The notes under the pieces are model-generated. The model was not told the origin of the DNA. It was given only the letters and a program-made list of their open reading frames with translations, and made no database searches. 64,000 bases of DNA from Lama guanicoe (taxonomy: Eukaryota), in assembly GCA_013239625.1 (NCBI GenBank), contig MU053559.1, forward strand, positions 806,001-870,000. The letters are read 5' to 3'. Position numbers and translations under genes: made by a program. This document shows positions 1,836 through 38,201 of this stretch, one piece after another (position 1 is the first letter of the stretch; each line of letters opens with the position of its first letter).

Positions 1836-3135
<1,300 letters not shown>

Positions 3136-3379: not shown

Positions 3380-6300
3380 TTTGTCAAGTTTTTGGTAAAA
3401 ATTGACAAGGAGATGTTAAAGTTTATATGACTATGCAAAGGACTTAGAGCACACAAAGCAAGGTATAGCATGGAGGAGTTATACTATGTAGTGCTAAGAC
3501 TTACTATAAAACTACAATGATTCAGATAGTGTGGTATTGATAGAAGTACAGACACATATATCAATGGAACAGAATAGAGAGTCCAGAAATAAACCCATGC
3601 ACATATGGTGAATTAGTTTATGGCAAAGGAGTCAAATATATACAATGCAAAAATGACAGTCTCTTCAATAAATGGTGTTGAGAAAACTCAACAGCCACGT
3701 GCAAAAGAACGAAAACTGGATCACTATCTATACCATACACAAAAGTTAACTCAAAGCGAATTAAAGACTTGAACATAAGACCAGAAACCATACAAGTCTT
3801 AGATGAAAACATCAGTGGTAAGCTCCTTGACATAAGTCTTGGAGATGAATTTTTGGATTTGACACAAAAGCAAAGGTAACAAAAGCAAAAATAAACAAGT
3901 GGGACTATATCAAACTAAAAAGTATATGCACAGCCAAAAAAACCTTCAACAAAATGACAAGGCAGCCTAATGAATGGGAAAAAATTTGCAAAACATGTAT
4001 CTGATAAGGGGTTAATATCCAAAATATATAAAGCAGTGATACAACTCAATAGCAAAAAAACTCCAAAGAGTCTGATTTAAAAATAGGCAGAGGATCTGAA
4101 TAGACTTTTCTCCAAAGAAGACATACAGATGGTCAACAGGTACGTAAAAAGGTACTTAACATCACTAATCATCAGGGAAATGCAAATCAAAACCACAATG
4201 AGATATCACCTCATACCTGTTAGAGTGGCTATTACCAAAAAGACAAGAACTAAGTGTTAGTGAGAATAGAGAAAGGGGAACCCTGATGTACTGCTGCTGG
4301 GAATGTAAATTAGTGCAGCCACTATGGAAAACAATACGGAGGATTCTCCAAAAATTAAAAACAGAACTCGTATATGATTCAGCTCTTCCACTTCTGGGTA
4401 TCTATCTGAAGAAAATGAAAACATTAAGTTGAAAACATATATACATCCCATGTTCACTGCAGCATTATTTATAATAGCAAATATATAGAATCAACCTAAA
4501 GTAAAGAAATCAAGCAAGACAAAATTATCAAACCACAAAAAGAAAAACAAAAAGAAAAAGAAAGGAACAAAGAAGAAATACAAAATCAACTGGAAACCAA
4601 GATTTAAAATGGCAATAAACCCACATCTGTAAATAATTACCATAACTGTCAATGGACTAAACGTTCCAATCAAAACACACAGAGTGGCAGATTGGATAAC
4701 AAAATAAGAGCCTACAATATGCTGCATACAAGAGACCCACTTTAGAGTGAAGGACACACAGAAATTGAAAGTGAAATCGAAATAGCAATAAAAAACCTCC
4801 CTACAAATAAAAGTCCAGGACCGGACAGCTTCACCCGGGAATTCTACCAAACATACAAAGAAGAACTCATACCAGTCCTTCTCAAACTCTTCCAGAATAT
4901 TGAAAAGGAGGAATACTCCCAAACTCATTCTATGAAGCCACCATCACCCTGATACCAAAACCAGGCAAAGACACTACAAAAAAAGAGAATTATAGGACAA
5001 TATCACTGATGAACATAGATGCAAAAATCCTCACCAAAATATTAGCAAATAGAATCAACAACACATAGAAAAGATTATACATCATGACCAAGTGGGGTTC
5101 ATCCCAGGGACACAAGGCTGGTTCAACATATGCAAATCAATCAATGTAATACATCACATCAACAAGAGAAAGGACAAAAACCACATGATCATCTCAATCG
5201 ATGCAGAAAAAGCATTTGATAAAATTCAACATCCATTTATGATAAAAACTCTCACCAAAGTGGGTATAGAGGGAACATATCTCAACATAATAAAAGCTAT
5301 ATATGACAAACCTACAGCCAGCATAGTACTCAACGGTGAAAACCTCAAAAGCTTCCCACTAAAATCTGGGACAAGACAAGGATGCCCATATCACCACTCC
5401 TACTCAACATAGTCTTGGAAGTACTAGCCACAACAGTCAGGCAAGAGAGAGAAATAAAACGGATCCAAATTGGAAAAGAAGAGGTAAAAGTGTCACTATA
5501 TGCTGATGACATGTTACTATATATAGAAAACCCTAAAAGGTCCACACAAAAGCTACTAGAGCTGATTGAAGAATTCAGCAAGTTAGCAGGTTACAAAATT
5601 AATGTTCAAAAATCAGTTGCATTTCTTTACACTAACGATAAATCAACAGAAAAAGAAAGTAAAGAAACAATCCCCTTTAAAATAGCACCCAAAGTAATAA
5701 AATATCTGGGAATAAATCTAACCAAGGAGGTGAAAGAATTATACACAGAAAACTATAAACCATTGATGAAGGAAATTAAAGAAGACTTTAAAAAATGGAA
5801 AGATATTCCATGCTCTTGGATTGGAAGAATCAATATTGTTAAAATGGTCACACTGCCCAAGGCAATCTACAGATTTAATGCAATCCCTATCCAATTACCC
5901 AGGACATATTTCACAGAACTAGAACAAATCATAATAAAATTTATATGGAACCATCAAAGACCTAGAATTGCTAAAGCATTACTGAAGAGAAAGAAAGAGG
6001 CTGGAGGAATAACTCTCCCAGACTTCAGACAATACTATAGAGCTACAGTCATCAAGACAGCATGGTATTGGTACCAAAACAGACATATAGACCAATGGAA
6101 CAGAATAGAGAGCCCAGAAATGAACCCACAAACTTTTGGTCAACTCATCTTCGACAAAGGAGGCAAGAATATACAATGGAATAAAGACAGTCTCTTCAGC
6201 AAATGGTGTTGGGAAAACTGGACAGCAGCATGTAAAACAATGAAGCTAGAACACACCCTTACACCATATACAAAAATCAACTCAAAATGGATTAAAGACT

Positions 6301-8190
6301 TAAACATAAGACAAGATACAATAAACCTCCTAGAGGAAAACATAGGCAAAACATTATCTGACATACATTTCAAAAATTTTCTCCTAGAAGAAATAAAAGC
6401 AAGAATAAACAAATGGGACCTAATGAAACTTACAAGCTTCTGCAGAGCAAAGGAAACCAGAAATAAAACAAGAAGAAAACCTACGGAATGGGAGAAAATT
6501 TTTGCAAGTGAAACCGACAAAGGCTTGATCTCCAAAATATATAAGCAGCTCATACGACTCAATAAGAAAAAAATAAACAACCCAATCCAAAAATGGGCAG
6601 AAGACCTAAACAAGCAATTCTCCAAGGAAGACATACAAATGATCAAAAAGCACATGAAAAAATGTTCAATATCACTAATTATCAGAGAAATGCAAATCAA
6701 AACTACAATGAGGTATCACCTCACACCAGTCAGAATGGCCGTCATTCAAAAATCCAAAAATGACAAATGCTGGAGAGGCTGTGGAGAAAGGGGAACCCTC
6801 CTACACTGCTGGTGGGAATGCAGTTTGGTGCAGCCACTATGGAAAACAGTGTGGAGATTCCTCAAAAGACTAGGAATAGACTTACCATATGACCCAGGAA
6901 TCCCACTCCTGGGCTTGTACCCAGAAGGAAATCTACTTCAGGATGACACCTGCACCCCAATGTTCATAGCAGCACTATTTACAATAGCCAAAACATGGAA
7001 ACAGCCTAAATGTCCATCAACAGGTGACTGGATAAAGAAGAGGTGGTATATTTATACAATGGAATACTACTCAGCCATAAAAACCGACAACATAATGCCA
7101 TTTGCAGCAACATGGATGCTCCTAGAGAATGTCATTCTAAGTGAAGTAAGCCAGAAAGAGAAAGAAAAATACCATATGAGATCGCTCATATGTGGAATCT
7201 AAAAAACAAAAACAAACAAACAAACAAAAACAAAGCATAAATACAGGACAGAAATAGACTCATGGACAGAGAATACAGACTTGTGGTTACCAGGGGGGTA
7301 GAGGGTGGGAAGGGATAGACTGGGATTTCAAAATTGTAGAATAGATAAACAAGATTATACTGTATAGCACAGGGAAATATATACAATATCTTATGGTAGC
7401 TCACAGAGAAAAAAATGTGACAATGGTATATATATGTTCACGTATAACTGAAAAAATGTGTTCTACACTGGAATTTGACACAACATTGTAAAATGATTAT
7501 AAATCAATTAAAAATGTTAAAAAAGAATTGAGAGGATGGAAAAAGATATTTCATGCAAATGGAAATGACAAGAAAGCAATACTCATATCAGACAAAATAG
7601 ATTTAAGGGCCATAAAGAAAGATAAAATAGAATCAACCTAAGCATTCATCAGTGGAAAATGGATAAAGAAAATGTGGTACATATGTACAATGGATTATTA
7701 TTCAGACATAGAAAGAAGGAAATCTTGCCATTTGCAACAATATGGATGAACCTTGAGGGCATTATGCTAAGTGAAATAAGTCAGACTAAGACAAATACCA
7801 TATGATCTCACTTATACATGGAATCTAAGAAAAACAAACAAAAAGTAGCTCATAGATACAGAGAACAGTTGGTGGTTGCCAGAGGCAGGAGTGGGTGGTG
7901 GGTGAAATAGGTGAGGGGATCAAAAGGTATGAACTTCCAGTTATAGAATGAATAAGTCATGGAGATGTAATACACAGCATGGTGTCTATAGTTAATGATA
8001 CTCTATTCCATATTTGAAAATTGCTAAGAAAGTAAATCTTGAAAGTTCTTATCACAAGAAAAAAATTTTGTAATTACGTATGGTAATGGGTGTTAGCTAG
8101 ACTTATTGTGCTGATCATTTCACAATATATACAATATTGAATCATCATGCTGTACACACAAAACTAATATAATGTTACATGTCAATAAAA
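3380..8190 (+). mobile_element. Older L1 (ORF2 3' part and 3'UTR) split by an insertion at 4500-7626
   Basis: Degraded ORF2 at 3380-4499 resumes at 7627; TSD ATAGAATCAACCTAA at 4485-4499 and 7627-7641. Confidence 0.8.
4771..7525 (+). mobile_element. Young 5'-truncated L1 with the RT and C-terminal part of ORF2 (606-aa ORF at 5382-7202)
   Basis: GTRQG, YADD RT motif, C-terminal CWRGCGE..HCWWEC; frameshifts upstream of 5390; 3'UTR and A tail. Confidence 0.95.
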
Positions 8191-8939: not shown

Positions 8940-9579
8940 TTTTTTTTAACATTTTTTATTGATTTATAATCATTTTACAATGTTGTGTCAAATTCCAGTG
9001 TTCAGAACAATTTTTCAGTCATTCATGGACATATACACACTCATTGTCACATTTTTTTCTCTGTGAGTTATCATAACATTTTGTGTATATTTCCCTGTGC
9101 TATACAGTGTAATCTTGTTTATCTATTCTACAATTTTGAAATCCCAGTCTATCCCTTCCCACCCTCCACCCCCCTGGTAACCACAAGTCTGTATTCTCTG
9201 TCCATGAGTCTTTAGATTCCACATATGAGTGATCTCATATGGTATTTTTCTTTCTCTTTCTGGCTTACTTCACTTAGAATGACATTCTCTAGGAGCATCC
9301 ATGTTGCTGCAAATGGCGTTATGTTGTCAGTTTTTATGGCTGAGTAGTATTCCAATGTATAAATATACCACATCTTCTTTATCCAGTCACCTGTTGATGG
9401 ACATTTAGGCTGTTTCCATGTTTTGGCTATTGTAAATAGTGCTGCTATGAACATTGGAGTGCAGGTGTCATCCTGAAGTAGATTTCCTTCTGGATACAAG
9501 CCCAGGAGTGGGATTCCTGGGTCATATGGTAAGTCTATTCCTAGTCTTTTAAGGAATCTCCACACTGTTTTCCATAGTG
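8940..9579 (-). mobile_element. Young L1 3' fragment, same subfamily as 4771-7525
   Basis: 117-aa ORF nearly identical to the ORF2 C-terminus at 6850-7202; TSD CATGCCAGCAGAATTT on both sides. Confidence 0.95.
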
Positions 9580-14452: not shown

Positions 14453-15891
14453 AGAGGACTCCCTTCATGGCAAAGGATTCCTCATGGGTTTCAGGACTCT
14501 CATTTTCTCTAGTCATTCACAGGAAACAGGGAAATGCGTCCCACGAGAGGGATCTATAATTATTGAATATGTAGATGATTTGCTGGTTTCCTCCATAACT
14601 GAAGAGTAATGCAAAAACCTGGTATTTTGGCTTTGTTAACATTCCTTGCTTCAGTGGGGCATAAGGCCTCCCCAGACAAATTCTAGTATTGCCAAACTGA
14701 AGTAAAATATTTATGGTATCTGTTGTTGGGTAAGGCAGGAAATTTAGCGGATGAAAGGGCCGACAACAATAAAACAACCTAGACACCTTGGGGCGCTAGG
14801 AGGGTACTGCGGGCAGCGGGTCCCAGCTTCTGTAGAGAAGGCAAAGCCTTGGGTGAAGCATGTGTCTGGTGATTCTCCAGAGCCTCTGACTTGGTCCCTG
14901 GAATTGGAAGAGGCTTGTGAACAGCTGAAACTGGCTACAGTCTCTCCCTCAGCTTTGGGGCTTTGAAATATTGAAAAACTTTCCCAATTGTTTTGTCATG
15001 AAAATAAAGGTGCTGTTCATGGAATTTTAACTCAAAAGGTGGGGTTAGACTACAGACCAGTAGCACATCTCTCAGTTCTTTGGGATGTTGTGGCACTGGG
15101 AGTGCCTGGATGCCTCCAAGTGGTGGCAGGAGCCATGCTGGGCCAGATATCTTATGTGCCTACAACTCGGCATCTATCGGCATGCCATCTGACTAACTAT
15201 GAACAAGCATTTCTATCCAATCCTTGTCTTGTACTTGGAAGATGCGATCTCTGAAACCCTGCTACTCTTTTACCAGATCCTGACCAAATAGATGATCACG
15301 AGTATGCAATGGTAGTAGCAGAAGACAGTAGGCAGCAACCAGATTTTTCTGATATTCCTGTTCAAAATGCACACTTGATGATGTTTACTAATGCGTCATA
15401 TACCCGGATGAAAAGGGTCATCTTGAGGCTTCAGACACTGGTGACTGCTCAGGAAATCTTGGAACCTTACATTTTGCCTGGAATTAAATCAGTACTAGCA
15501 GCCAAATGAATAGCAATTCTAGGGTCCAAATCTTGGTTCAGGACTTTAAGTGAATCTATATGCTGAGAGTAAAAATGTGTTTGGTGTCTACTGTGTAATG
15601 GGGCAAATTTGAAACAATAGGGGATCCCTGACTTCATTGGGAACTAAAATATCATAGAAAATTAACATCCAAGTTGTTAGTAGCTTCACAACTATCTGCT
15701 CAGCTATCAGTAATCCATTGTAGAGTCCACATAGGGCAGAATGACCAAATTTCTAAGGGCAATGATTTCACTGACAGAGCTGCAAAACTCACTGTTAAGA
15801 CGCAGCCAACTCAACTTAGAAGCCCCATTTCTAATACAACAGGAAACTTTCATTCTGTTTTAAATAACCGGCCTTCTAAAAGGAAATGGAC

Positions 15892-16021
15892 GAGGGTAGG
15901 GTATGGTTCAAGTGGTAGAGTGTATGCTTAACATGCACAAGATCCTGGGTTCAGAGAAGTACCTTTTCCAAAAATAAATAATACCCCACCACAAAAAGAA
16001 ACTTAAGGAAAAAAAACTTTT
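15892..16021 (+). mobile_element. tRNA-derived SINE whose tail resumes at 20946-20989
   Basis: A/B-box head; TSD AAAAGGAAATGGAC at 15878-15891 and 20990-21003. Confidence 0.8.
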
Positions 16022-16347
16022 AAAATATACTAAATTTTTACATAAGCAAAACAAAACAACAACCTACGGAATGGGAGAAAATTTTTGCAAATGAAACCAA
16101 CAAAGGCTTGATCTCCAGATATATAAGCAGCTCATACTACTTAATAAGAAAAAAACAAACAACCCAATCCAAAAATGGGCAGAAGACCTAAATAAGCAAT
16201 TCTCCAAGGAAGACATACAAATGATCAATAGGCATATGAAAACATGCTCAATATCAGTAATTATCAGATAAACGCAAATCAAAACTATGATGAGGTATCA
16301 CCTCACACCAGTCAGAATGGCCATCATTCAAAAGGCCACAAATGACA

Positions 16348-16821
16348 CTGTAAATGTTAATGGACTAAATGCTCCAGTCAAAAGACATAGAGTGGCAGAC
16401 TGGATAATAAAGCAAGAACCTTCAATATGCTGCATACAAGAGATCCACTTTAGGGAGAAGGACATATATAGATTGAGAGTGAAAGGATGGAAAAGGATAT
16501 TCCATGCAAATGGAAAAGCCAAAAAATCGGTGTTGCAGTACTGATTTCAGACAAAATAGACTTTAAAACAAAGGCCATAAAGAAAGATAAAGAAGGACAT
16601 TTTATAATGATTAAAGGAGTGATACAAGATGAGGATATTACACTCGTTAATATATATGCACCCAATATAGGAGCACCTAAGTACATACAAGAATTACTAA
16701 CAGAGATAAAGGGCGATATTGATGGGAATACAATCATAGTTGGAGATTTTAACACTGCATTAACATCACTAGACAGATCTTCCAGACAGAAAATAAACAA
16801 GGCAACAGAGAAATTAAATAC
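16348..16821 (+). mobile_element. Young L1 ORF2 endonuclease domain running into the gap
   Basis: VNVNGLNAPVKRHRVADWI..CCIQE..; GVAVLISDKIDFK..NIYAPN..IIVGDFNT. Confidence 0.9.
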
Positions 16822-17228
16822 NNNNNNNNNNNNNNNNNNNNNNNNNNNNNNNNNNNNNNNNNNNNNNNNNNNNNNNNNNNNNNNNNNNNNNNNNNNNNNN
16901 NNNNNNNNNNNNNNNNNNNNNNNNNNNNNNNNNNNNNNNNNNNNNNNNNNNNNNNNNNNNNNNNNNNNNNNNNNNNNNNNNNNNNNNNNNNNNNNNNNNN
17001 NNNNNNNNNNNNNNNNNNNNNNNNNNNNNNNNNNNNNNNNNNNNNNNNNNNNNNNNNNNNNNNNNNNNNNNNNNNNNNNNNNNNNNNNNNNNNNNNNNNN
17101 NNNNNNNNNNNNNNNNNNNNNNNNNNNNNNNNNNNNNNNNNNNNNNNNNNNNNNNNNNNNNNNNNNNNNNNNNNNNNNNNNNNNNNNNNNNNNNNNNNNN
17201 NNNNNNNNNNNNNNNNNNNNNNNNNNNN
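16822..17228. other. Assembly gap (407 N)
   Basis: Run of N. Confidence 1.
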
Positions 17229-18050
17229 ATATTTAGGTTATTTCCATACCTTGGCTATTGTGAATTATGCTGCAGTGACTGTGGGAGTGTAGATAATCTT
17301 TTCAAAATAGTGATTTTGTTTCCTTTGGAAATATACCCAGAAGTGGGATTTTTGGATCATATGGTAGTTCTATTATTTTTTTAACATTTTTAAATTGAGT
17401 TATAGTCATTTTACAATGTTGTGTCAATTTCCAGTGTAGAGCACAATTTTTCAGTGATACATGAACATACATATATTCATTGTCACATTTTTTTTCACTG
17501 TGAGCTATCACAAGATCTTGCACACACCTCCCTGTGCTACACAGTATAATCTTGTTTATCTATTCTACATATGCCTGTCAGTATCTACAAATTTCGAACT
17601 CTCATTCTGTCCCTTCCCACCCCTGGTAGTTCGATTTTTAATTTCTTGAGGAAACGCCATACTGTTTTCTACAGTGGCTGTACCAATTTCCATTCCCACC
17701 ACCAGTGTGAGAAGGTTCCCTTTCCTCCACATCCTAGCCAACATTTGTTATTTGTGTTCTTTTTGATGATGGCCATTCGGACAGGTGTGAGGTGATGTTA
17801 TGGTTTTGATTTGTATTTCCCTGTTGGTTAATGATGTTGAGCATCTTTTCATGCAAATGTTGGCTATTTGTATGTCTTCTTTGCTCTGTTTAGGTCTTTT
17901 GCCCATTTTAAAATTAGGTTGTTTGTTTTTCTGATATTGAGTTGTATGAATTCTTTATATATTTTAGATATTAACCCCTTATCAGTTATGTAGTTTGCAA
18001 ATGTTTTCTCCCAGTCTGTAGGAGGTCTTTTCATTTTGTTGATGGCTGTG
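17229..18050 (-). mobile_element. Older L1 ORF2 3' fragment with a nested younger L1 3' end (about 17375-17623)
   Basis: Reverse-strand L1 text; TGGTAGTTC(T/G)ATT repeated on both sides of the nested piece. Confidence 0.8.
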
Positions 18051-18059
18051 GTAGTTTGA

Positions 18060-18390
18060 GGTAGTTCTTCGTCTTTAAAATGGGGATTATAATAATAACC
18101 ACTCCAGAGGGTTATTGTAAAAATTCAAAGAGATAAAATACATAAAATGTCAAGAACATCATGCCTTGCTGGAAGGAGTGGTGTCTTGTCCACTCTGAAC
18201 AGGTGAGGATGGACAGTGGATGCTACAGTTAGCCTTGCTATTTTAGGGGTCACAGACCAGCATCTCCTTGAACCTTGTTATAAATACAGCATCTGCTGCC
18301 ACCCCAAACTAAACAGCAATATGCATCTTAACAAGATTGTCAGGTGCTCAGTGTGCACATCGTAGTTTAAAAAGCAATGGTCTAGAGGCC
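18060..18390. mobile_element. MIR core (about 18060-18170) and MER5-like hAT fragment (about 18240-18390)
   Basis: CTTCGTCTTTAAAATGGGGAT.ATAATA..AGGGTTATTGTAA.AATTCAA.GAGATAA; ..ATGCAT.TTAACAAGAT..CAGGTG..TGCACAT..AGTTT. Confidence 0.65.
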
Positions 18391-18994
18391 AAAGGGGTAT
18401 TAGAACTTGACATAGTGTTTCAGTTATATTCTATGTTGTTGGCTTCCCTGCTGCACAAAGGGAAAAACGGAGATTCGATTTGTAAGATGAAAGTGTTGAG
18501 GTTCAATACCTAAATCCTTTTTAAAAGATGGACTAATTTCTTAGGTCTGAAAAGCAATTGGACTGCAAAAAGGAACCTCTCTGTCCAAAACAAATACTCT
18601 ACGACAAACGGGCCATCTCGAGAAGAACACTCCTAAGTCTCCTTGCTAATTTTCAGGAGACACTTAATGACGAGGGAACATACCTGCCAGGCCAAGGAGT
18701 CCACAGAGCGTAGCTAAAATGCCGGCTGCTATGACCGAAGAAAGAGGCAGGTTGCTGAGTGGGTGTAGCTCAGAGAAGCCTCCTGTATTGAAATAGTACC
18801 CATTCAAGAATTTTAAATAACTATAGGAAAGACTTGTTCTGAGCTCTTAAGACTATTAGAGATTGCAAAGCTTTAGGTGACTGTAATTTGCCTGTTGTGG
18901 AATACATCACGTTTGGCTAATAGAGGAAGAAATGATAAAACTTCCTTCTAATACAATGTGCTAGACTCCCTGATGACTAAAGAATTGGTTCTGG

Positions 18995-19092
18995 TTAGAG
19001 TTCCGGCCAGGTAGCAAATAAAAATACAGAGAACTCAGTTAAATTTGAATTTCAGATAAACAGTAATTTTTTTAGTGTAAGTTCGTCCCATG
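18995..19092. mobile_element. MER33/MER53-like hAT fragment
   Basis: TAGCAAATAAAAATACAG..CAGTTAAATTTGAATTTCAGATAAACA..TTTTTTAGT.TAAGT..GTCCCA. Confidence 0.6.
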
Positions 19093-21030
19093 GGTTCCTT
19101 CAGTCCTGTGTGTTCTCTGGCAACCCTTGCTCCAGCCTATGGGGGGACACTAGATATTTACTTAGGATCTTACGGAAAGTTGTATCCAAAGGAAACTATG
19201 TCACCTCCATGCTTTCTCTGGGGACGTGCGTTTCTGGCAAGAAGATTACAGAGCTTATGTGTCTTAACCAACCTCAGAGATCATCAACTTTGTTTTTCTG
19301 GATTTCACAAAGCTTACGTCACTTGCCCAGGGCAACCGGCTGATTATTTCTGAAGCTACTTTTCCTCATATGAGTCATTTTGAATAATGTAATCTTGAAT
19401 CTCAAGGTACTAAATCTGATGTAGAAACTGTTCTTATAAATGGTCCAAAAGTAACAGGGGGTAGGGGGAAGTGACAAGCAAAACCAAGTAAGGGAAGTAA
19501 CAAAGCCAGGCATTGACCAGGGAGATGAATGTACTAAAATACTTCAAATATGACTTAAGTTAGAGTTGTCATAGTAGTTGAAGCATGTAAATTTTTTTCT
19601 GTTGAATTGAAGCTGTGGAACATGTTGATTTTTTTTTAAAAAAGTGTCATATTAATCAAATTACTCCAAATGTGTCATTGACTCATAGCATAAGAGACGC
19701 AAGAGATTTGTAATTAGAAAAAATATTACTGAACCATAAAAAATCTGTGTTGAACAAAAGTAAATACTGTTATCCTGGGATGTGTATAAAAGAGAGAAAA
19801 ACTTTAGCTTAAATGAGACCCGAGATACCAGGGAATAATTTGCAAAAGCAATTCTTAATACATACAAATCAGTTTAAGGGAAAGAAAGTAACAGGAGTCG
19901 CCTCCTGAAATTCCAACATTTTTGAGCCCTCTTCTGGCCACTAAATGGTGACAGAACATTCAGCACTAAATAACATCTGGAGAATAACAAAGGCACAAAA
20001 TAATAATAAATGTATTCGGGCTTTAAAAGAAAAATTACAGAGAAAAAAATGTGACAATGAGTGTGTATATGTCCATGAATGACTGAAAAATTGTTCTGAA
20101 CAATGGAATTTGACACAACATTGTAAAATGATTATAAATCAATAAAAATGTTAAAAAATAAAGTTCTTATAAAATTAAAAAAAAAGGCCACAAATGACAA
20201 ATGCTGGAGAGGCTGCGAAGCAAAGGGAACCCTCCTACACTGCTGGTGGGAATACAGTTTGGTGCAGCCACTGTGGAAAACAGTGTGGAGATTCCTCAAA
20301 AGACTAGTAATAGACTTACCATGTGACCCAGGAATCCCGCTCCTGGGCATATATTCAAAAGGAACCCTACTTCAAAAAGACACCTGCACCCCAATGTTCA
20401 TAACAGCACTATTTACAATAGCAAGGCATGGAAACAGCCTAAATGTCCATCAACAGATGACTGGATAAAGAAGAAGTGGTATATTTATAAAATGGAATAC
20501 TATTCAGCCATAAAAACGACAACATAACGCCATTTGCAGCAACATGGATGTTCCTGGAGAATGTCATTCTAAGTGATGTAAGCCAGAAAGAGAAAGAAAA
20601 GTACCATACGAGATCACTCATATGCAGAATCTGAAAAAAACATAAATACAAAACACGAAACAGACTCACAGACATAGAATACAAACTTGTGGTTACCAGG
20701 GGGATGGGGAGTGGGAAAGGACAGACTGGGATTTCAAAATGTAGAATAGATAAACAAGATTGTATTGTGTAGCACAGGGAAATATATACAGGATCTTGTG
20801 GTGGCTCACAGCGAAAGAGAATGTGACAATGAATGTATGGATGTTCGTGTATAACTGAAAAATTGTGCTCTACACTGGAATTTGACACAACATTGTAAAA
20901 TGACTATAACTCAATAAAAATATTTAAAAATATATTAAATTTTTAAAGAGTTAAAAAAAGGAGATGTAAATATATGAATATTTTTTTAAAAAAGGAAATG
21001 GACAAATGTATTAACAAAGGGGCTGAAAAG

Positions 21031-22867: not shown

Positions 22868-23562
22868 TGAAGGGCAGTAGAATGTGTCACCCCAAAATAT
22901 GCCACTTTGGCTTAGGGATTATTTCGAGCTGAAGGCAATTGAGAAGAAGCAGGTACAAGAAAAGTTCTCTGCCCTCCCATTTGCCTAAAAGCAAGATATA
23001 AATTTTCAAAGGTGTCCCTCTTCTTCTCCCTACCAGGAAGGACAAAAGTTAATCACAGGAAGAGGGGAGAGCATAGCTCAAGTGGCAGAGTGTGTGCTTA
23101 GTATGTACCAGGTCCTGGGTTCAATCCCCAGTACCTCCATTAAAAATAATTAAGTAAACCTAATTACCTCCCCCCAAAAACAAAATTTAAAAACATTTTT
23201 AAAGGTTAATCATGGAAGACAACTCTAGACCCAATCAGCCTGGAGATGGCACCTACATAACAAACTTTACCAATTGGCCTCTATCTACCATTAGTCACCT
23301 CCCATATGTTTACCGTCCTGCAGTATGCTGCCCTTGGAAGCCTAAAACCACTTTCCTTTGTCCTGTCATTTCTCCATCTATATAAGCTGGAATTCTAAGC
23401 CACCACTTTGAGTTACTCATTTTTTCCTTGGGTATCTCCCAAAGATACATGAGATATACAAGTTAGTAAACTTGTTTTCTCTTATTAATTTGTCTTTTAC
23501 TAAAGGGGTTCTCACCAAGAACTTAGAAGGGTAAAAGGAAAATTATTTTTCCCTCCCCTACA
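22868..23562 (+). mobile_element. MER34-like solo LTR containing a SINE (about 23062-23200)
   Basis: TG..CACCCCAAAATATGCCACTTTGG...TTTTCCCTCCCCTACA; near-TSD AGGT/AAGT. Confidence 0.7.
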
Positions 23563-25594
23563 AAGTACTCTAGCAAACTTATTACTATTCTCATAGACTG
23601 CCTTGCTGTCCCAGTCACAGTAGGGTTATTTCAGTTACTTAAGAATCACATTTTACTGGAAAACAAACATGTTATTTGTTACATAGCTTTCTTCCCCTGT
23701 ACTCCAAGTAGTGGTCTCCACAATTACATGTTTCTGATCAGCTCCATATTGTATTCCCAGAATAGACATGATCTGGATTAGTAATTCCAACAGCCTAGTT
23801 GCTGGCAGAGTGAAGGTGGAACCATCTTCATTAGTAATTTTTGATAACACCAAAGTAAAGGAACTAATATGCATCAGGATGCTGAAGCCCTAAATTTGAC
23901 ACAAAAGTGTTCTGTTAACTAGTTTGATTGGAAAGATCCTTATACAGGAAAGAATTCTAACTATACTACAATCAAGAGAATTGTAGGGGTAATCCTACTA
24001 ATGAAGGTGAAAGGTTCTCTCACCTTTACTATGGTAGGGGTGATGTTCAATAGACCTACTGATAGCTGTAAAGACAGTGATGGTAAATTACATCACCCAA
24101 ACTGGTAGAAATCCTATCAACAGACCCCTCAAGAGATATATTAAAGAGATCTTCCTGCTACATTTGGAATGTGGCAATGTCCTGAGCCTACTTTAATAGC
24201 CCTCAGGATTATAGGTGGATGGTTTCTCTTAATATATCTGAGGCAAGTATCACTCTTCACAACCAGACATATATCCCTTGAACCCTCCCATTATGGAGCC
24301 TGTTTAAGGGGCCTGTTTGGGGTCCACACAAGGGCAAAGGAGGCTTATTAGAATACAGTCCTGGAAGGAATAGGAACAGGCACAGGTATAGCTAACTCTT
24401 TTGAGAGTGAGGCCTTAAATAATAAACTTAGTGCTTTGGGATAATTACAAAAACACAGAATACAATTGCGAACTGTAGGGAATCACATCATGCAACATGT
24501 TTAAAAGCCATGGGAGCACAAGTAGAATGGAAACTGAGAAAATTCTGGAATTGGACTGTTTGGAATAACTTCTTAATGATGGAGCAAAAAAATCACCCCA
24601 AAGGTCTCAGAGCCACTCATCTGTACAGGCCAGGAGCAGTTCGCTATCAAATAGCACTAGGATAGCATCACTAGTTTGGAGTTTTAGCACTGTTCATATT
24701 CAAGGGAACAAACAGATATTGGACTATATGAGAAGGGACAGAAGGATGGTATTTTTAAAAAGCATCTCATTAGTAGACAAACAGAAATCTGGCATTTATA
24801 GATAAAGACTGCAGAAGATGGAATTACATCATTGGATTAATTTTAGTATGCAAGTTCTCTCCAGTTCCAGTACGGATAAACAAAAGTAGATGCCTATTAT
24901 TCATGGAGGTTTGTGTGCCTGTTATTGACTTGGACCAGTGCAAGCCAACGGCCCACAGGCTGGGTTTTTCCTCAAGACTTAAAAGCAAATACATTAAGCA
25001 CTGGAAGTTCAATCTGTACCCTTCAAAGAGTGCCTCGTAATAGCATACTACAAATGACCACCAGTGTCTTTGTGTTTTGCATCTGGGAAATATTATTTGG
25101 GGAGACAGAACAATTACTGCAGGGCTAAATTATGTACTTGTGATGGTAATTACTGAGTGACAGGAATTCAGGAGAAATTCTCTGGATCTCATAAGAAAAA
25201 AAAAACCCTAATTAAAACCCCCTTAGGCTTGGACTGGGTAAGACTTCACAAGGAATTACAAAATAATACTTAAATAACGAATCACTTGAAAGAGTAAGCA
25301 ATAGAGACAACACAATAGTTTGTGAAAGTAACATATGAGGAACGGAGAATTTTTGTACATTGCTAATCAAGAATGTGCTTTAACCGCTGGTAAGACACAT
25401 TTATAGGCTTTTTTTTCCCCAATGCAAATATTATGCTGACTTTGAAAATTTACCCTGTGGTAATTTTCATAACTGCTTTGCTTTGCTACTGGATGGACCT
25501 ACTGTGTATTTAGGTGGCTGCAGACTGCCCAGAGAAAGATAGAAAGGGCAATGGAGATAATTAGAAAATTATAATGTTATTATAAAAGGGAAAT

Positions 25595-26431
25595 TGTAAG
25601 GATAAAAAAATGGAACTTTCCCTGTTGCCAAAAGAGAGAGACCTTTACCCTCTTCCTTTCCTTGAGAAAACTGGTATCAGTAAATCCTTCCTCTGCCCCT
25701 TTGATATGTAAGTAAATCTTTTAAAAGAGTAAATAAGCCTTTTGTCAGCATGACCACCCAGGAATGTTTTTCTTAAGGGCCTGGGAGCCATCCTCTTGAA
25801 ATGTAAACATCAAGGAAGATAGGGCCCTATCTCCCCATCACTCTGCCTAGGCGCCTGGCTCTAAACTGTAAGTACCTGCTTGTCATAGAGACAGATGTTT
25901 GATTTTGCCTTTAGATAAAGGCAATGAACTGGCACAGACGGCCACTCCAATTACCAGGTGAACTAAGGATGACTATGTAAGAGTGTAGATAGAGCGAACT
26001 GTCCCGTAAAGTCCTCTTGCAGGAGAACTTATAAGTTGGTAAGTTATCATTTATCTTGAGAACAAGCATCTAATGGATGCTAGGTGCTCCACCACATAGA
26101 AGGGTGAGAGTTCTTCCTGTCTTTGCAATCTCTTCAGCTAATTGCTTATGGTGCGCGTTGTGGTCCGGTTTAATGCTTAGTCAATAACAAAACTATTTTC
26201 TTTCTATTTTATGTTCGTAGAAATTTCCTGGGCTGCCAAGAGATTTTATTTTTAATTTTTTCTGGAATGTGCAACCACGCTGACTCTGGCTACTGCTTTT
26301 TCTGTGAGCAGTCAAGTCTCCCATCACTGACTCGGGAGTCTCATGATCTCGGCCAACATACTTGAAAGTGTGGCAAGCCAGCTTGTTAGTTTAAGGAGGG
26401 TAAAATCTCAGCCCCTTCAAAGTTCTTGACA
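25595..26431 (+). mobile_element. Proviral 3' LTR (MER31/MER67-like)
   Basis: Preceded by purine tract AAAAGGGAAAT; runs TGTAAG...GGGTAAAATCTCAG..AGTTCTTGACA. Confidence 0.7.
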
Positions 26432-29175
26432 CCAAGGACCAAGACCAATGTGTATTCACGTGGGAAGGCCTTTGATATACATTGGCAGTACTCTCCCAGG
26501 GGTGATGAGAGTACGTTGGAGTTTCACACCAGTGAGTGGGTCAGGCTTTAGTGAGACTGCCCCTACCCTCTGCATACAGGTAAAGTCCTCTCGGTTAGAG
26601 AGAAGGTTAGGTCTCAATGGCTCTGTCCACAGTATCATCACCCCTTTGCCATCAGAGGTGGCTGGTAAACCCTGACAAAATTCAAGGGAAGGGTCTGGGA
26701 CCTCTGGGTGGATTCACAATAATCTATCCCTCTCGCAATCAATGAAAAACTTCTATGTCTTTGAACCCCACACCAAAAAGGAAGCCCAGCATCACACTGG
26801 ACTCTCTGGGAATGGGAGACAGAATGTGCCTCTCCTGGATGTCTTACTTGATCCTTTATATTAGCCAAACCACAAACAATGTCCTTTGAGTGGGGCGCAA
26901 ACCAAAAGACAGAGTAGGATGCTGTCTGGCAAGCTGAGGTGCATTTTCTGCTCCCTATCTTCAGGGTCCCCAAAGCCTAAACAACCCTGCTGAGCTACCA
27001 GTCTGTGTAACCGATGATGCTGCCTATTGGGGCCACTAGCAAAGGGAGGCAGCCTCCACTCGGAAAAGCCCCTTGGGGTACCGCCTTTGTAATCTTCCTT
27101 ACACAGCTACTAGCTACAGCCCCTTGGGAAAAGCAGCTATTAGCTTGCTATTGGGCCCTTGTCCAAACTGAACACCTGACCCCTGGAGGCCCTGCAAACT
27201 CTCCAGGCCTGACAGTCCCATTTGGAGGTAGGTCAATTCAGACTCAATCACCAGTGAGGTGGGAAGGACCCAACAAGCCTCGCCTGTCAAAAGGAAAGAG
27301 TATATTCAAGAGCATAGCTGGGCTGGCTCCAGCAGCATCTTGGCTTTATGTGAAAATAGGACAGCTAACTCTTTGGAGGAAAATTTATCTCCCATTTGGC
27401 AAACCATGGAGCAAGGTTGCTGGGCTTAATGGGGCCCTCAGTTCACAGATGATCCCTCAAGTGCCTGGACCTGATCCACTAATGACTGGGCTAAGGTGGA
27501 ATCTAATAGTTTCCACTGGGCTATGCAGCTGTTTGACCTTAGAATATTTTTTTTATTTAAATGGAGGTACTGGGGATTGAACCCAGGACCTCGTGCACGC
27601 ACTCTACCACTGAGCTATTCTCCCCACCACCTTAGCAAAATTTAGAATGGATGTAGGCGCTCCTCTCAGCAGGCAGAACTCAAGGCTATTCTTCTTACAA
27701 TTCTGGCCAATATTCCCTTTGATATTTATTAACTCTTGAGCTATTGCCAGTGTCCAGCTGTGCAGACTCCCACTTGGAAGACTACAGGCTGGGATTGGAC
27801 AGGCCTCTTTGGTATCATGGACTGTGGAAACAAATCACAGCTATTAATTGAATGGTCTGGGTCACCCACATAGGTGTCCATGGTAAGGGTCCATTCTCTG
27901 ATGACACTGACTGGAGTCAGGTTGCTATGGAGCCTTCAGTGCCCAGATTACTGCTATTGCTTTTCTTCATCCATCGTCCCACAAACATGTCAACACAGTC
28001 ATCATCATGGATTGGGCACAAATGACAAGACTCCACCTTTCTGATGCAGAGGCTGCCATTGCATGCCAAACTGTGACTCCTTCCAAAAGATGACCCACTG
28101 GGATGCACATAGCATGAAGTATGGGCCTGTCTGCTCCTGGCAAACCGCCTCACACCTTAAGAGCCTGCTCTCAGGGATTTCACCACTGTTGCACTATTGC
28201 CAACATTTTTTTCAGGTTGAACTGCTGCTGTTTCAGTCTGTTCAGCTGACTCCAGCCACACCATTGTGGCTCTTAGAATTCAGCTGTGTCAGGTTTTCAG
28301 CTTTCTGGACTATTTATTGGCAGCCTGAAAATGGTCCGCCTTTTACTGCAAAAGCTGTGTAATGATAGGCTGATGGTCAAGGTATTTGATAAGACCTCCA
28401 CACTCTCTACCATCTACCGGCATCTGGTATTGCTGAGTGATGGAATGACCTCCTCAAAAATGGACTCGAGATGGGTAGTTATAGCTCAATGGCAGACAGT
28501 GTGCTTGGCATTTGGGAGGTCCTGGGTTCAATCTCCAGTATCTCCACTTTAAAAAAAAATGTTAATGGATTCAAAAGGATTTCAGAATCTACCACTCTCA
28601 CCTCCACCTGGTCCACACACCCTAGTTAGGGAGTTTGGTCAATGACAATGTCTGTCCCCAGAGAGGAATCATCTCGCTTCAGCTGCACCCTGGGTAATTA
28701 ATGATCAGAACAAAAGGTGTTAGGGGTTAGATGGATGTATTTTGACAATTTGGGATCCTCTATTGAACATGCCTGGGTATAATCTTTCTTTCACCTAGCA
28801 AGCCCAGACTAGCCTGGCTGGTAACCCTCTGGGCGGCAGCCCAGCCAGAAGGGAGGCAGCCTAAGAGACTGACATTTAATTCTGGTTCAGCTACCTGGAT
28901 TGTTTGGTTGGACCGACACTGTTCTAGATCATAAAGATAATTATTATTTGGCTCGGTACACTGCTTACTATGTCCCCCTACAGTGACCCACATGGGCCAT
29001 TCAGATGAAAGGTCTGGGAACTGGTAGGAGATCACTGGGAGGTTGTGGGGAGGAGGTGAATTTATAGCTATTAGAACGGGCCATAATGATTTTGTGTCAG
29101 GAGAGGATGCACAACAACACAGAACCTGAAGAGGAAACACCTTAGACTCCAGGAGGTCCAGGAAAGGGAGGGACA
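26432..29175 (+). mobile_element. ERVL (class III) internal pol segment, decayed; SINEs at about 27545-27630 (-) and 28470-28560 (+)
   Basis: DQCVFTWEG..YT..L.QG, PDKIQG, FEWG, PWEKQLLACYWALVQTEHLT motifs. Confidence 0.8.
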
Positions 29176-30194
29176 TTCATCATCTTTGTCTTTCAGAACC
29201 ACCCCTGAAGCCTTCCTCACAAAGGAAAATGCCCTGGTATATCGCCCCCAAACTGTAGCAAGGACCTTACATTTTACTGGCTGTTAGATCCTCCAATACC
29301 TGCAACTGGATGTTATCACCATTCCCTTTAATCTTGAGAAGTCTAAAAGGAACAGCAAGGAGGACCCCAGCTCCTGCATTTCACATGCAAAACACCTGTC
29401 AACACCTCCAAATGTCTCCTTGAACCCCTTCCCTTGGCCATTGCTCAATCATTCTGTAGGGCAGAAGAATGCCACGTGGCTGGTAGCATGGACATATATA
29501 TATAGGACTAGACTCATATAGACAAGACTCAGAACCCTTGACAATGATGAACTTCACCTGAACCCTGAAAAGTGACAGCTAAGAAATCCCCCCACCTGTC
29601 TGTGTTCCTCTTCAAGAAATGCCTTACGACACAGAACCATTCTTCCCACGTGACTCAGATAAACCTAGCTGTCCACTCTTTCCTGTGACCCCCATAGGAC
29701 TTGCAAACGACTCCCTTTTTCACTGGTGACAAGGTCAAATGCAGACCTTTCTCCTTTTGCCTGAATCTGTGGAGAAGCCAGACACAGGCTCTCCAACTCC
29801 CCATTCTCTGTCTCATGAATGATTAACTGAGATTAGAAATTTGTGCCCATGTATGTATATGTAAGACTGAAACTTTACGCTGTACACCAGAAATTGACAC
29901 AACATTGTAAATTGACTATACTTCAATTTTTTAAAAAATGATAGAGAAAAGTACAAAAACAAAAGAAAGTTGTGCCCCTTAAACAAGCTGGACACAGAGA
30001 TAAACACTGTATTTTCAGCTGTCTGAGACTTCCTCTGACTGCAGAAACAACTCCACCTGTGAATCTCCACAATGTGACTTGTCTCCTCCTCTCTTTGGAA
30101 GTACAAGACCAAACCACCCGGCTGACACAGTCTGATCTTCAGATCTGGGGTGTTTCCCCAATTGCAACAGCCGGAAGAAAATCAATTTCAAGAT

Positions 30195-30600
30195 GGGATT
30201 AGACTGAGGCCTTCATATAGGTGCCTTTATAAGGAGAAACATGTGGGAGAGGATATAGCTCAAGTGGTAGAGCACATGCTTAGCATGCACGAGGTCCTGG
30301 GTTCAATTCCCAGCCCTCCCTCTAAAAATAAATAAACCTAATTGCCCCCCCAACAAATTAATAAAAATAAACAAATTTTAAAAGGAGAAATCTCACAGAG
30401 TTTGCTCTCACTCTGTCTGCAATCCCCCTCTGCCCACGCACAAAGAGATCACCTGAAGACAGCAAGATGGTAGCCGCCTGCAGCCAAGAAGAGGGCTCTC
30501 ACCAAGACCAGACCTCAGCACCATGAGAAAAACAAATCTGTGTTGTTTAAGCCACCTAGACGAACGTATTTTGTTACAGCAGCCCGAGCTGACTAAGACA
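30195..30600 (+). mobile_element. MLT1A/MST-like LTR containing a SINE (about 30246-30380)
   Basis: Ends TTGTTTAAGCCACC..TATTTTGTTACAGCAGCCCGAGCTGACTAAGACA. Confidence 0.75.
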
Positions 30601-30699
30601 TCCTCTATATATTTCATAAGATTATATATGTTTTCTCCTTAAAACATACTTATGTAAAATATTTCAATGTTTATAGATGTGATTTATTTTTGCTAGCTT

Positions 30700-33600
30700 T
30701 TTACTTTTTCAGTGAATTCTCTGCAGCTGCATAATACTATAAACTCTAATATAGCAAAGCTTTATAGAGTATTATTTTTTGCTTGATCAAGGGTAGGTTA
30801 AAATAGCTAGCGGTAGAGTTAACTATTTCTGCTAGTTTTTATTTTACACAATTTAAGGGTATATTATTAGCTATCAATGTATTGATGATTTTTATAAATC
30901 TTAGTATTTTACCGTTTGAACCATTGCCTTCATCTCTTGTGATGTTTTTACCTTCCGTTCCCTCTGGTCTGATATTGAAAATGCAGCCCCATATTTCTGT
31001 TGGTTCTTGTTTGCCAAGTCTATGATTTTCTATCCCTTTACTTTCACATTTTCTGGGTTTTTTACTTTTAAGTGTAGCTCATATTTATAAAATAATGCTG
31101 GACCTTGGAAAGTTTTTGGTTGTTGTTTTTTCTATCTAATCTGAGAATCTGTTTCTTTTAATGAATGATTTTAACCCATTTACAATGTGTAATTACTATA
31201 ACACTAGGACTAATCTCTGATATTTATATATTTCTTTGGGTCTCTTTTAATCTCCTTGACAGATCAAATTTTTGGTGTTTCCCCACTTAATGCTCATTTG
31301 AAAATTATCCATTCTATTTATATTCTTCTGTTCACCTATTGCAGCATAAGACCATTAACTATACACGTGTTTGTCTAACAAGGTCCATCAATGCCTATAT
31401 CCTTCTGCACAAGAATAAGAGGAACACAGGATTTTTTATTTTTCCTTTCACTCACTCGCCAACTACCTCTTGTGTGTATAACTGCAATTTTGGTTCCAAT
31501 TTGTAACAATACACATTTGTATATATTTGCATTGTATTTTTTCATTCAGATAATAGAAATAAGCACTGATATCACAAGTATATTTGAAGAAAACGTTATC
31601 ACATTAATGGGAAATGCAAAGATTACTTGAAAAAACACAGACATACCCTGTTCTTTAATAGTAAATCTGAATGATCATAAAGAGACATATGGCCCTACAT
31701 TAAAATATAAATTTAATGCAGACTCACTGACAAGAGGATTATTTTAAAATTTTGGTAAGCTGATTACAAATTGTGTACAGAAAATAAAACAATCAAGAAA
31801 ATAGTAAATTTCTGAAAAAGAAGTGTAATCAGAGACTTAGCCCTATTCTCTGTAAGAATAAATTATAAATGTAGAGGCATTGGAATAATAAAGATTATGA
31901 CTATTAGAGCAATAGAACAGGATAAGGTCCATAAATATACTCAGAGTTATATATTAGAATATATATATACTAATGTAGTGTTGCATGTTAGTGGGGAAAA
32001 ATAGGTTATTCAATAAATGGTGTTAAGACAAATGTGTAGGCATTTTAAGGAAAATGAAGACTGAGCCCTGGCTAAGGACTTACAACAACCAAAACTCCAG
32101 ATAGTCACAGAAGTAAAAGCAAAACTAAAAACACAAAAGTACTGAAAAGAACGTGCAGGCATTTATTTTTCCAAATATAGCTGAGCAATGGCGAAAGCCT
32201 TCTACTTAAGAAACAAAACTTTGAGGACATAAAAAACTGATGAGCACAATTAAGCGAAATGCAGGGAGAAAAAGCCAGAATTTTCATTTAAAAGACAAAT
32301 GAGAAATTGAGGGGAAATATTTGGGACAAAGAGCTACTGTCAATGTATAAACAGCAACAACCTAATAGAAAAATGGGCAAAGGAACTTTTAAAAACAGCT
32401 CAGGAAAAAATAAGTAGCTCTTTAATCACAATTATAAATATTCAGTCTCAGCCATAATAAGGGAAATGCACATTAAATCTGCACTGAGATACCTACCATG
32501 TTTTAGCCTATAACATGGGCCAAAAAGAAAACGAACGTGACAAGACACTGTTCTGTCTTGGGTATGGTGAAAACAGACATTCTTACACAATTGATACAAC
32601 CCACAAAGAAGGTCATTTTGCTATATCTATCAAAAATGAAAATGCATATATATCGTTTGTCCTGATAACTCCATTTGCAGAAATTTCTCTTTCAACATAC
32701 TCCCTCTTGTGTTAACTGAAATATGTACATTGCAGCATCGTTTGTACTGGCAAAAGACTGGATATCTTAAATGTTTATTTACAGGGGGCTGGTTATATTT
32801 TGGTATGTCCACATAATGGAATATGATTCATCCTTTAAAAAGGATGAGGCAATTCATTACATCTACTGTCATTTAATGAGCAGCAAGATTTATGGTTAAA
32901 TGAGAAAAATATTGGAAGTTCAAAAATGGATATAGCAGAGTATGTGTGTGTACGTTGTGTGTGCACGTGTGTGTGTGTGTGTGTGTATGTGTGTTTGCAG
33001 ATGCACTTGGAAAGGGTATATGGGAGACTGGGGTCAAAACTGGAGGGTATGCATTATTTTCCTTTTCAGAAGATTTTTATGAAATAAAAATTCATGCAAA
33101 AATTCATCAAACATAAATATTTGGCTTAACTAATTACTCAAGGTAAATACCTACCTAATTCCCACTCTAGTCTGGAAACAGACCACTGCCAGCCCTTTGC
33201 CCAAAAGCCTTCCTCATGCCTCTTTCCCTGCCTCCCCCAGCTCCCCCAACAATCATGGAAACCACAATCCTGCCTCTGATGGTAAGCACTTGCTTTTGAG
33301 TTTAAGCACCTAACCATACACCCCTGTACAATATGGTTTTATTTTGCTTGTCTTAAAACTTTACATAAATTAAAACCATACGAATTATCTTGTGTCTGGA
33401 TTCTTTCATGAAATATGTTCAATTTATGTTCATTCTACTATTGATGGGGATTTAAGTTATTTCTAGTTTCTGGCTGTTACAAGTAATGCTACAGCATTTA
33501 TACATGTGTCCTGGTACATTAGCCGAGGATGTCTCTTGGGTATTTTCCTAGGAGAATTATTTCTTCATATGAGCTCCGGATGCTTTGATGAAGAAGGCTA

Positions 33601-34200
33601 AAATGTTTTCCAAAGAGACTGTGCCAATCTACACTCCCACCAGCAGCATATGAACTGCTGATATGAGCTAATGTATCAGCAGCTGCATGTGCTGATTGGT
33701 TACATGTGCTGAAATGAGCATATGAGCTGCTGATATGGCTCCTCATCCTCGCTAACACTTGTCATTGTCAGTCTTCTTAATTTTAGCCATTCTGGTGGGA
33801 GTGTAGTGGTGTTACATTGTGGGCTAACTTTTGCATTTCCCTAACGACTAAAGAGACTGAGTACCATCTCAGACTTTTCTTAGCCATTCAGATATCTTCT
33901 TTTGTTACACACCTATTCAATTAAGGCCCATGACTACCGGGTCATCTGCTTTTTCTTATTGTTTTCTTGTTCTTTACCCATCCTGGGTGTAAGTCCTCTG
34001 TTGTCTATCTCTTCTCCCACTCTGTTGCTTGTGACTTCCTTCTCAATGAAAGTAATTATCATAAAAGTCAGGAGAGAAGTTATATTGGGGAGTAGGGGGA
34101 TTCTGGAATGCTGACTATGGACACTTTCTAGACCTACACAGTGAAAAGTCACTGAGCTGTATGTGTCTGTTTTGCACACTTTTCTGTATATATGTTATAT
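30700..34200. mobile_element. Ancient L1ME-like fragments in both orientations
   Basis: Degraded L1 ORF2 and 3' motifs (AATAAATGGTGTT, GAAAAATGGGCAAAGG, GGGAAATGCA.ATTAAA, TTTTAGCCATTCTGGTGG). Confidence 0.6.
32940..32995. repeat. (TG)n microsatellite
   Basis: Seen directly. Confidence 0.9.
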
Positions 34201-34237
34201 TTAACCATGAAACATTTTTTAAAAGAGAGGCTTAGCA

Positions 34238-34325
34238 GGGAGGGCATAGCTCAGTGGTAGAGTGCATAGTTAGCATGCATGAGTTCCTGGGTTCAATACT
34301 CAGTACCCTCGTTAAAAATAAGAAT
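34238..34325 (+). mobile_element. tRNA-Ala-derived SINE
   Basis: GGGCATAGCTCAGTGGTAGAGTGCATAGTTAGCATGCATGAGTTCCTGGGTTCAATAC. Confidence 0.85.
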
Positions 34326-37755: not shown

Positions 37756-38129
37756 AAAAAAGCAGGGAAGAGACATTTTTAAAGACTTAGAGAACTGACA
37801 TCTTTTGCCACTTGTGAATAAAACTAGAAACTAATTTCAAATTAGGGTGGCAAAAAATATTCACAAAAATATACAAGAATGATAAAGGGTTATTAACCTT
37901 AATATTTTTAAAAAAAATCTCTTTAAAAATCCGTAAGCTAAGATAAATAAATCAGCAATGGACAGGAGAAGAGAAGGAAATTCACAGACAGGAAATGAAT
38001 CACCCACCATAAAAATCCTGATTATGCTGCCTGGCTAAAAAAAAAAAAAAGTCATACACATCAAAATAATGCGACTATCTTTCATTCTGGATGAATTCCT
38101 GCTACTGGGCGCCTCTTCCTCCTCCTTAC

Positions 38130-38201
38130 CTCACAGGAGCTGTCAGGTCCCTCTGTAGTCAGGGCCACGGATGGCCCAGGAGAGCTCTGATCGGCAGGCA
38201 T
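38130..38201 (-). CDS. ZNF81: ZNF81 first coding exon (whole exon 38130-38375)
   Basis: gaccATG then MPADQSSPGPSVALTTEGPDSSCE; phase-0 donor GAG|gtaagg splices in frame to the KRAB-A exon (..[11 protein letters not shown], as in ZNF81); acceptor tctttccag| at 38375. Confidence 0.85.

What the first reader, a model, noticed from the sequence alone, without database searches (positions are those of the whole stretch)
16348..20181. Probable L1 3' transduction carrying about 2.8 kb of foreign genomic DNA into the ZNF81 intron
Seen: a perfect 18-bp TSD AAAAGGCCACAAATGACA (16330-16347 and 20182-20199) brackets the insert. It starts as young L1 ORF2, crosses the gap, then contains an old antisense L1, MIR, MER5, a hAT fragment and unique DNA. 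It ends AATAAA (20157) + 14 nt + A-run. Known: MIR and MER5 are far older than the lineage-specific SINE and L1 that surround them, so they could not have inserted here. Inference: an L1 read through its own polyA signal and retrotransposed its downstream flank.
Basis: partly seen in the sequence, partly recalled or inferred. Interest (0 to 1): 0.72.

Follow-up and report, generated by a model that had tools for sequence, protein, structure and literature searches.

The report
L1 insertion with unverified foreign filling
A young jumping gene (LINE-1) really did land in an intron of ZNF81, but the 2.8 kb of unrelated DNA written inside it may be an assembly error at a sequence gap rather than DNA it carried along, and either way it is a known kind of event.

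Summary
The insertion is real: an exact 18-bp TSD, an endonuclease-type site, a 5' cut in L1 ORF2 codon 12, and a host L1 that is colinear once the insert is removed. It lies in a ZNF81 intron. The finding's text omits that the insert ends in the last ~120 nt of the youngest L1 3' UTR (111 of 112 identical to another copy). A canonical 3' transduction needs at least 3,549 nt of L1 inside a gap sized 407. Gap plus foreign DNA (3,215 nt) is instead within 6-8% of what a plain L1 would need there (3,424-3,501). My best reading (0.45) is a plain ~4.1-kb L1 whose interior was mis-filled from another locus through the shared L1 end. A true long transduction ending at a downstream L1 stub (0.33) and a real chimera (0.17) stay open. 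The foreign DNA occurs in 20 of 24 listed runs. Its position, copy number and contiguity are untested: no genome was held and no reads were laid. Known kind of event either way; low interest.

The parts
16041..16347 (+). Host L1, 5' half (late ORF2), older than the insert
   Evidence: 277 of 299 identical to the L1 at 6465-6765; 2 stops and a frame change
16330..16347 (+). Left TSD copy, 18 bp; preceded by TTC, giving bottom-strand TTTT/GA, one base from the L1 endonuclease consensus
   Evidence: consensus 3'-AA/TTTT-5' in PMC11702581 (passage)
16348..16821 (+). Inserted L1 ORF2 endonuclease piece, codons 12-170, one frameshift near 16525, no stop
   Evidence: human ORF2p residues 13-71 and 75-169
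16822..17228 (.). Assembly gap, 407 N
17229..18046 (-). Old antisense L1 (late ORF2, with stops), still inside ORF2 where it meets the gap
   Evidence: 72-78% to other window L1 copies; tblastn pieces for residues 375-557 of the 620-aa window ORF
17376..17624 (-). Camelid-type L1 3' end nested in the old L1, flanked by a 9-bp repeat
   Evidence: 91% to 35261-35512
18050..18165 (.). MIR-like fragment (label recalled)
   Evidence: read from the sequence; no repeat library available
18257..18385 (.). MER5-like element
   Evidence: sub-threshold Rfam mir-544 match, E 3.7e-4; MER5A1 link in PMC5424272 passages; extent recalled
18990..19120 (.). hAT (MER3/MER33-like) fragment (label recalled); holds an AATAAA at 19017
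   Evidence: read from the sequence
18050..20036 (.). Foreign block, unique in the window
   Evidence: no self-hit before 20029; 0.92-0.96 of 218 words held by 20 of 24 listed runs; two longest + strand frames have no Pfam match
20022..20036 (+). TTT|AAAA endonuclease-type site 12 bp before the L1 stub; suggests the stub was a separate insertion into the foreign DNA
   Evidence: such a site lies 7-20 bp upstream of 1-3% of positions
20037..20158 (+). Last ~120 nt of the youngest L1 3' UTR, with AATAAA at 20141 and an A6
   Evidence: 111 of 112 identical to the copy at 8942-9072, 97 of 113 to the host L1
20159..20181 (+). 18-nt A/T-rich spacer then A5; the second AATAAA (20157) overlaps its start
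20182..20199 (+). Right TSD copy, 18 bp
20200..20960 (+). Host L1, 3' half and tail
   Evidence: 659 of 727 identical to 6740-7540; colinear with the 5' half across the site
2495..2626 (-). ZNF81 KRAB-A exon (downstream end of the host intron)
   Evidence: Pfam KRAB; 100% to dolphin and 98% to human ZNF81
38127..38201 (-). ZNF81 ATG exon (upstream end of the host intron)
   Evidence: tblastn with 5 of 6 ZNF81 N-termini

Best explanation
A young L1 inserted by target-primed reverse transcription into an older L1 in a ZNF81 intron, antisense to the gene, making an 18-bp TSD (shown). It was 5'-truncated in ORF2 codon 12 (shown) and most likely ran uninterrupted to its own 3' end and tail, about 4.1 kb (inferred). 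The assembler could not resolve the high-copy interior. It filled most of the gap with a contig from another locus that also ends in a ~120-nt stub of the same young L1, joined the two through that shared end, and left 407 N as the remainder of the estimated distance (inferred).
For: Length budget: the L1 sequence missing between 16821 and 20037 would be 3,424-3,501 nt (22 of 45 ORF2 proteins usable as yardsticks, with in-window 3' UTR lengths), and gap plus foreign DNA is 3,215 nt, 6-8% less. The foreign DNA meets the right flank exactly through a repeat 111 of 112 identical to another copy, which is where a mis-join would fall. A TTT|AAAA site 12 bp before the stub (chance 1-3%) predicts a 12-bp TSD for the stub that is absent from the tail, as expected if junction and tail come from different copies. 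Validated germline transductions in primates were 51-1,570 bp (PMC4862182, passages), against at least 2,950 here. Gap closers often insert wrong sequence and repeats misassign reads (PMC8848313, abstract start and passages).
Against: The left contig runs 474 bp into the same young repeat, so the method should also have crossed the 145-bp stub and tail from the unique right flank (inference). A majority-vote extension would follow L1, not a single-copy neighbour. A 7-bp word just before the stub recurs at the end of the tail and could be the stub's own TSD (chance 1.3% of all positions, 6.5% near endonuclease sites, 12.7% in A/T-rich context). The gap size could be arbitrary, or biased low by an empty allele, which would make the length match a coincidence. 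I have no measured mis-join rate for this assembly and no read evidence.
Confidence: 0.45

Rival explanations
1. True partnered 3' transduction, with one correction. A source L1 read through its own signal and at least 2.8 kb of flank, and was polyadenylated at the signals of a short same-strand L1 stub downstream. About 7 kb was copied into ZNF81, and the gap is under-sized by more than 3.1 kb.
For: TSD copies on both sides of the gap, so the scaffold order is right. The foreign DNA is contiguous with tail and TSD in one contig. AATAAA 14 nt before the A-run fits cleavage 10-30 nt downstream (PMC13009371, passage). A sense L1 end is a natural stop. The 7-bp word may be the stub's TSD. 8.8% of 5,311 polymorphic human L1 insertions carry a transduction (PMC12350158, passages).
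Against: Needs at least 3,549 nt in a 407-N gap. No source-L1 3' UTR or A-tail is visible, and the old antisense L1 is still in ORF2 at the gap edge. The RNA must pass two more AATAAA (19017, 20005). The length is well beyond the validated 51-1,570 bp range (PMC4862182). It leaves the match to plain-L1 length unexplained.
Confidence: 0.33
2. A real but non-canonical chimera with the gap size roughly right. Either a source L1 that had lost its own 3' part read into its flank and was mobilised in trans, or reverse transcription or later break repair switched template at the shared L1 end, replacing the L1 interior with DNA from another locus.
For: Fits both the intact TSD and the short gap. Template switching and templated genomic insertions are reported for L1 ORF2p (PMC11702581, passages). 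L1 chimeras with diverse RNAs are catalogued (10.1101/2025.02.02.635956, abstract).
Against: Needs two switches or a rare 3'-deleted active source. The endonuclease-type site before the stub suggests the stub junction formed at the foreign locus, not during this insertion. No positive evidence beyond compatibility.
Confidence: 0.17
3. The foreign DNA is native to this intron, or is contamination from another species.
For: None found.
Against: It sits between two exact TSD copies inside a younger L1 that is colinear without it. It carries two L1 ends of the window's own type and is held at 0.92-0.96 by runs under five organism labels.
Confidence: 0.03

Closest known systems
Partnered L1 3' transduction (PMC4862182, PMC12350158, PMC13009371; passages read)
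   Same: L1 sequence, then non-L1 genomic DNA, polyA signal, A-tail, all inside one TSD at an endonuclease-type site.
   Different: The L1 3' UTR and first A-tail are not seen and do not fit in the gap as sized. The cargo (at least 2.95 kb with the stub) is longer than the validated 51-1,570 bp. The insert ends in a second L1 3' end. No source locus is identified.
Plain 5'-truncated L1 insertion with an unresolved interior in a draft assembly (PMC10883270, abstract and passages: assemblies often resolve the site but not the inserted sequence)
   Same: TSD, 5' truncation in ORF2, young L1 3' end and tail, a gap in the middle, overall length within 6-7%.
   Different: 2.8 kb of non-L1 DNA is written between the gap and the 3' end, which needs a mis-join.
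L1 chimeric and templated insertions (PMC11702581, passages; 10.1101/2025.02.02.635956, abstract)
   Same: L1 and unrelated sequence in one TSD-flanked insertion.
   Different: The human chimeras were sought 5' of the L1 (section headings); here foreign DNA lies between two L1 pieces.

Membership tests
L1 3' transduction (partnered) | One TSD around the whole insert, at an endonuclease-type site | tested here: met
   18 of 18 identical, two copies only; bottom-strand TTTT/GA; host L1 colinear without the insert
L1 3' transduction (partnered) | PolyA signal 10-30 nt before a terminal A-tail | tested here: met
   AATAAA at 20157, 14 nt, A5; but it belongs to an L1 tail, so a plain L1 meets it too
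L1 3' transduction (partnered) | Source L1 3' UTR and first A-tail between the L1 body and the cargo | tested here: inconclusive
   Not visible; needs at least 3,549 nt where the gap is 407; the gap size may be wrong
L1 3' transduction (partnered) | Near-identical second copy of the cargo downstream of a source L1 | not testable with these tools
   No genome held; two searches found nothing, in collections unlikely to hold it
L1 3' transduction (partnered) | Cargo physically joined to the target site in reads; empty site in relatives | not tested
   laid nothing; all 24 listed runs are short contigs, none raw reads
Plain 5'-truncated L1 insertion | 5' truncated L1 start, L1 3' end, tail and TSD | tested here: met
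Plain 5'-truncated L1 insertion | Continuous L1 sequence between the two ends | tested here: inconclusive
   Not so in the assembly as written; the length fits within 6-8%; depends on the mis-join
Plain 5'-truncated L1 insertion | 5' piece and 3' end from the same subfamily | tested here: inconclusive
   No young endonuclease-domain copy in the window (best 84%); none of the 45 full-length hits was above 70% identical or labelled camelid

The most novel reading that the evidence does not exclude
The structure is real with the gap size about right: a germline L1 insertion whose interior was swapped for ~3 kb of DNA from another locus by a homology-guided template switch at a shared 120-nt L1 end, or the trans-mobilised read-through of an L1 that had lost its own 3' end. 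Dispersed L1 stubs would then act as capture points for unrelated genomic DNA.
Probability: 0.15. Interest if true: 0.5.

Novelty: new member of a known kind. Interest (0 to 1): 0.2.

Why it matters
If it is a mis-filled gap, it is a warning: a perfect TSD around a gapped insert does not validate what lies between, and draft assemblies can mimic long transductions. If it is a true transduction, it is unusually long and would point to a recently active camelid source L1, but the cargo looks like inert old repeats (no Pfam match in its two longest + strand frames; no Rfam match at gathering score) in an intron, so it would add an example and not a mechanism. One search (transduction, LINE-1, camelid) listed 4 papers. 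I looked into one, a camelid repeat survey (PMC8605555, passages), which mentions transduction once and in general terms; the other three are off-topic by title. That is a thin basis for any claim about what is in print.

Tried and rejected
No genome is held for this window, so no search for a second copy was possible. laid nothing, so junctions, copy number and the empty site have no read or contig evidence. A 24-base exact pattern from the foreign-to-stub junction found 0 matches in metagenome contigs; that collection is unlikely to hold this DNA, so the blank means nothing. Earlier findings near the site, by sequence and by words returned nothing. A search for a full-length camelid ORF2p to date the inserted piece failed: 45 hits, 48-70% identity, none labelled camelid; 22 of the 45 served as length yardsticks and 23 were dropped for incomplete coverage of either end. 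Dating by decay was inconclusive: one frameshift and no stop in ~157 codons, against three frame changes and two stops in the host's ~245 codons and none in the two youngest copies. CpG observed/expected is higher in the foreign block (0.32) than in two flanks (0.17, 0.14), which fits a different origin but separates no model. Searches on gap-size bias and young L1 in drafts gave no number I could use. Rejected: chance TSD, native position, contamination. The 4 of 24 runs with share 0.00 were same-sample additions and are no evidence. No supplementary files were read; length distributions in those of PMC4862182 and PMC12350158 could shift the prior for long transductions.

Full report
Setting. 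The window holds the 5' part of ZNF81 on the minus strand: an ATG exon at 38201-38127 and the KRAB-A exon at 2626-2495, with a CpG island near 42.75 kb. The finding lies in the intron between them, antisense to the gene. I take the organism to be a camelid from its SINE sequence (recalled); an earlier, unchecked note calls this genome a South American camelid assembly. No genome was available.

The insertion is real. The 18-mer at 16330 and 20182 is exact, occurs twice in 64 kb and extends on neither side. It differs at 3 of 18 positions from the same stretch of another L1, the same way in both copies. With the insert and one copy removed, the host L1 aligns to the L1 at 6465-7524 with no gap at the site. 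The site reads TTC|AAAA, one base from the endonuclease consensus (PMC11702581, passage). The insert starts in ORF2 codon 12 and matches human ORF2p residues 13-71 and 75-169, with one frameshift and no stop.

What the finding's text leaves out. The last L1-like 120 nt before the tail (20037-20158) are the 3' end of the youngest L1 type in the window: 111 of 112 identical to the copy at 8942-9072, against 97 of 113 to the host. It has its own AATAAA at 20141, and the AATAAA at 20157 is part of a degenerate 16-nt repeat in the tail. So the insert begins and ends as L1, with a gap and 2,808 nt of foreign DNA between. The foreign DNA holds an old antisense L1 with a nested younger L1 end, a MER5-like element (PMC5424272, passages), and MIR-like and hAT-like pieces that I label from memory. 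It is genuine DNA of this clade: 20 of 24 listed runs, under 5 organism labels and 7 studies, hold 0.92-0.96 of its 218 sampled words. That says nothing about where it lies.

Length budget. A plain L1 would need 3,424-3,501 nt between the left gap edge and the stub (22 of 45 ORF2 proteins usable, with 3' UTR lengths of 147-200 from window copies). The assembly has 3,215. A plain insert would total 4,058-4,111 nt; the assembly has 3,834. A canonical transduction needs at least 3,549 nt inside the 407-N gap, and probably more, because the old antisense L1 is still in ORF2 at the gap edge. I did not compute a probability for this match. My estimate is that it favours the mis-fill several-fold, less if gap sizes in this assembly are arbitrary.

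Stub junction. A TTT|AAAA site lies 12 bp before the stub; 1-3% of positions have one 7-20 bp upstream. This suggests the stub was its own insertion into the foreign DNA, which fits both the mis-fill and the transduction and argues against a switch made during this insertion. The 12-bp TSD it predicts is not in the tail. A 7-bp word is shared, at a chance of 1,654 of 126,918 positions overall, 150 of 2,318 near endonuclease sites and 620 of 4,872 in A/T-rich context. The two signals point in opposite directions and both are weak.

Against my reading. The left contig reaches 474 bp into the young repeat, so the 145-bp stub and tail should have been crossable from the unique right flank, and the foreign DNA is contiguous with the right TSD in one contig. 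An empty allele could also pull the gap estimate down. For these reasons I keep the true transduction at 0.33. It would have to pass two further AATAAA and exceed the 51-1,570 bp validated in primates (PMC4862182, passages); 8.8% of polymorphic human L1 insertions carry a transduction of any length (PMC12350158, passages). A real chimera with the gap size about right gets 0.17 (PMC11702581, passages; 10.1101/2025.02.02.635956, abstract and section list).

What is open. laid nothing and one search found nothing, so contiguity, copy number and the empty site are untested. The subfamily of the ORF2 piece could not be fixed. The shown steps are the insertion, its two ends and the gene context. Everything about the interior is inference.

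Papers. Passages by term search: PMC8605555, PMC8848313, PMC12350158, PMC4862182, PMC13009371, PMC5424272, PMC10883270, PMC11702581. Abstract and section list: 10.1101/2025.02.02.635956. Others were seen only as search listings. No supplements were read.

Verdict. A real, ordinary young L1 insertion. Its foreign filling is somewhat more likely an assembly error than a transduction, and both the leading readings are known kinds of event. Interest 0.2.

Noticed in passing
window 15878-21003: A 14-bp direct repeat (15878 and 20990) brackets a SINE, the host L1 and the insert together, inside ERV pol-like DNA (RNase H-like words near 15700-15790, label recalled): four nested layers.
   Followed up: partly
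window 8942-9579 (-): Youngest-type truncated L1 with an exact 17-bp TSD and a tail of only about 8 A; used as the reference for the stub.
   Followed up: partly
window 5340-7524 (+): Young 5'-truncated L1 with 620 open codons of ORF2, about 9 residues shorter than human over residues 650-1274.
   Followed up: partly
window 4640-4943: An older L1 piece in which endonuclease-domain sequence seems to run straight into mid-ORF2, suggesting an internal deletion.
   Followed up: no
window 20159-20176: The 18-nt spacer between two A-runs could itself be a very short 3' transduction; 71% of nanopore-detected tumour transductions were under 100 bp (PMC13009371, passage).
   Followed up: no
window 23067-36783: Five tRNA-like Rfam matches at gathering score; four coincide with SINE copies seen in the self-BLAST, so tRNA-derived SINE heads are likelier than tRNA genes.
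   Followed up: partly
window 27011-27580: A 189-codon open frame with retroviral pol-like wording (recalled) and no Pfam match.
   Followed up: no
window 18560-18800: A small CpG-rich patch inside the foreign block; it may help to find the source locus.
   Followed up: no
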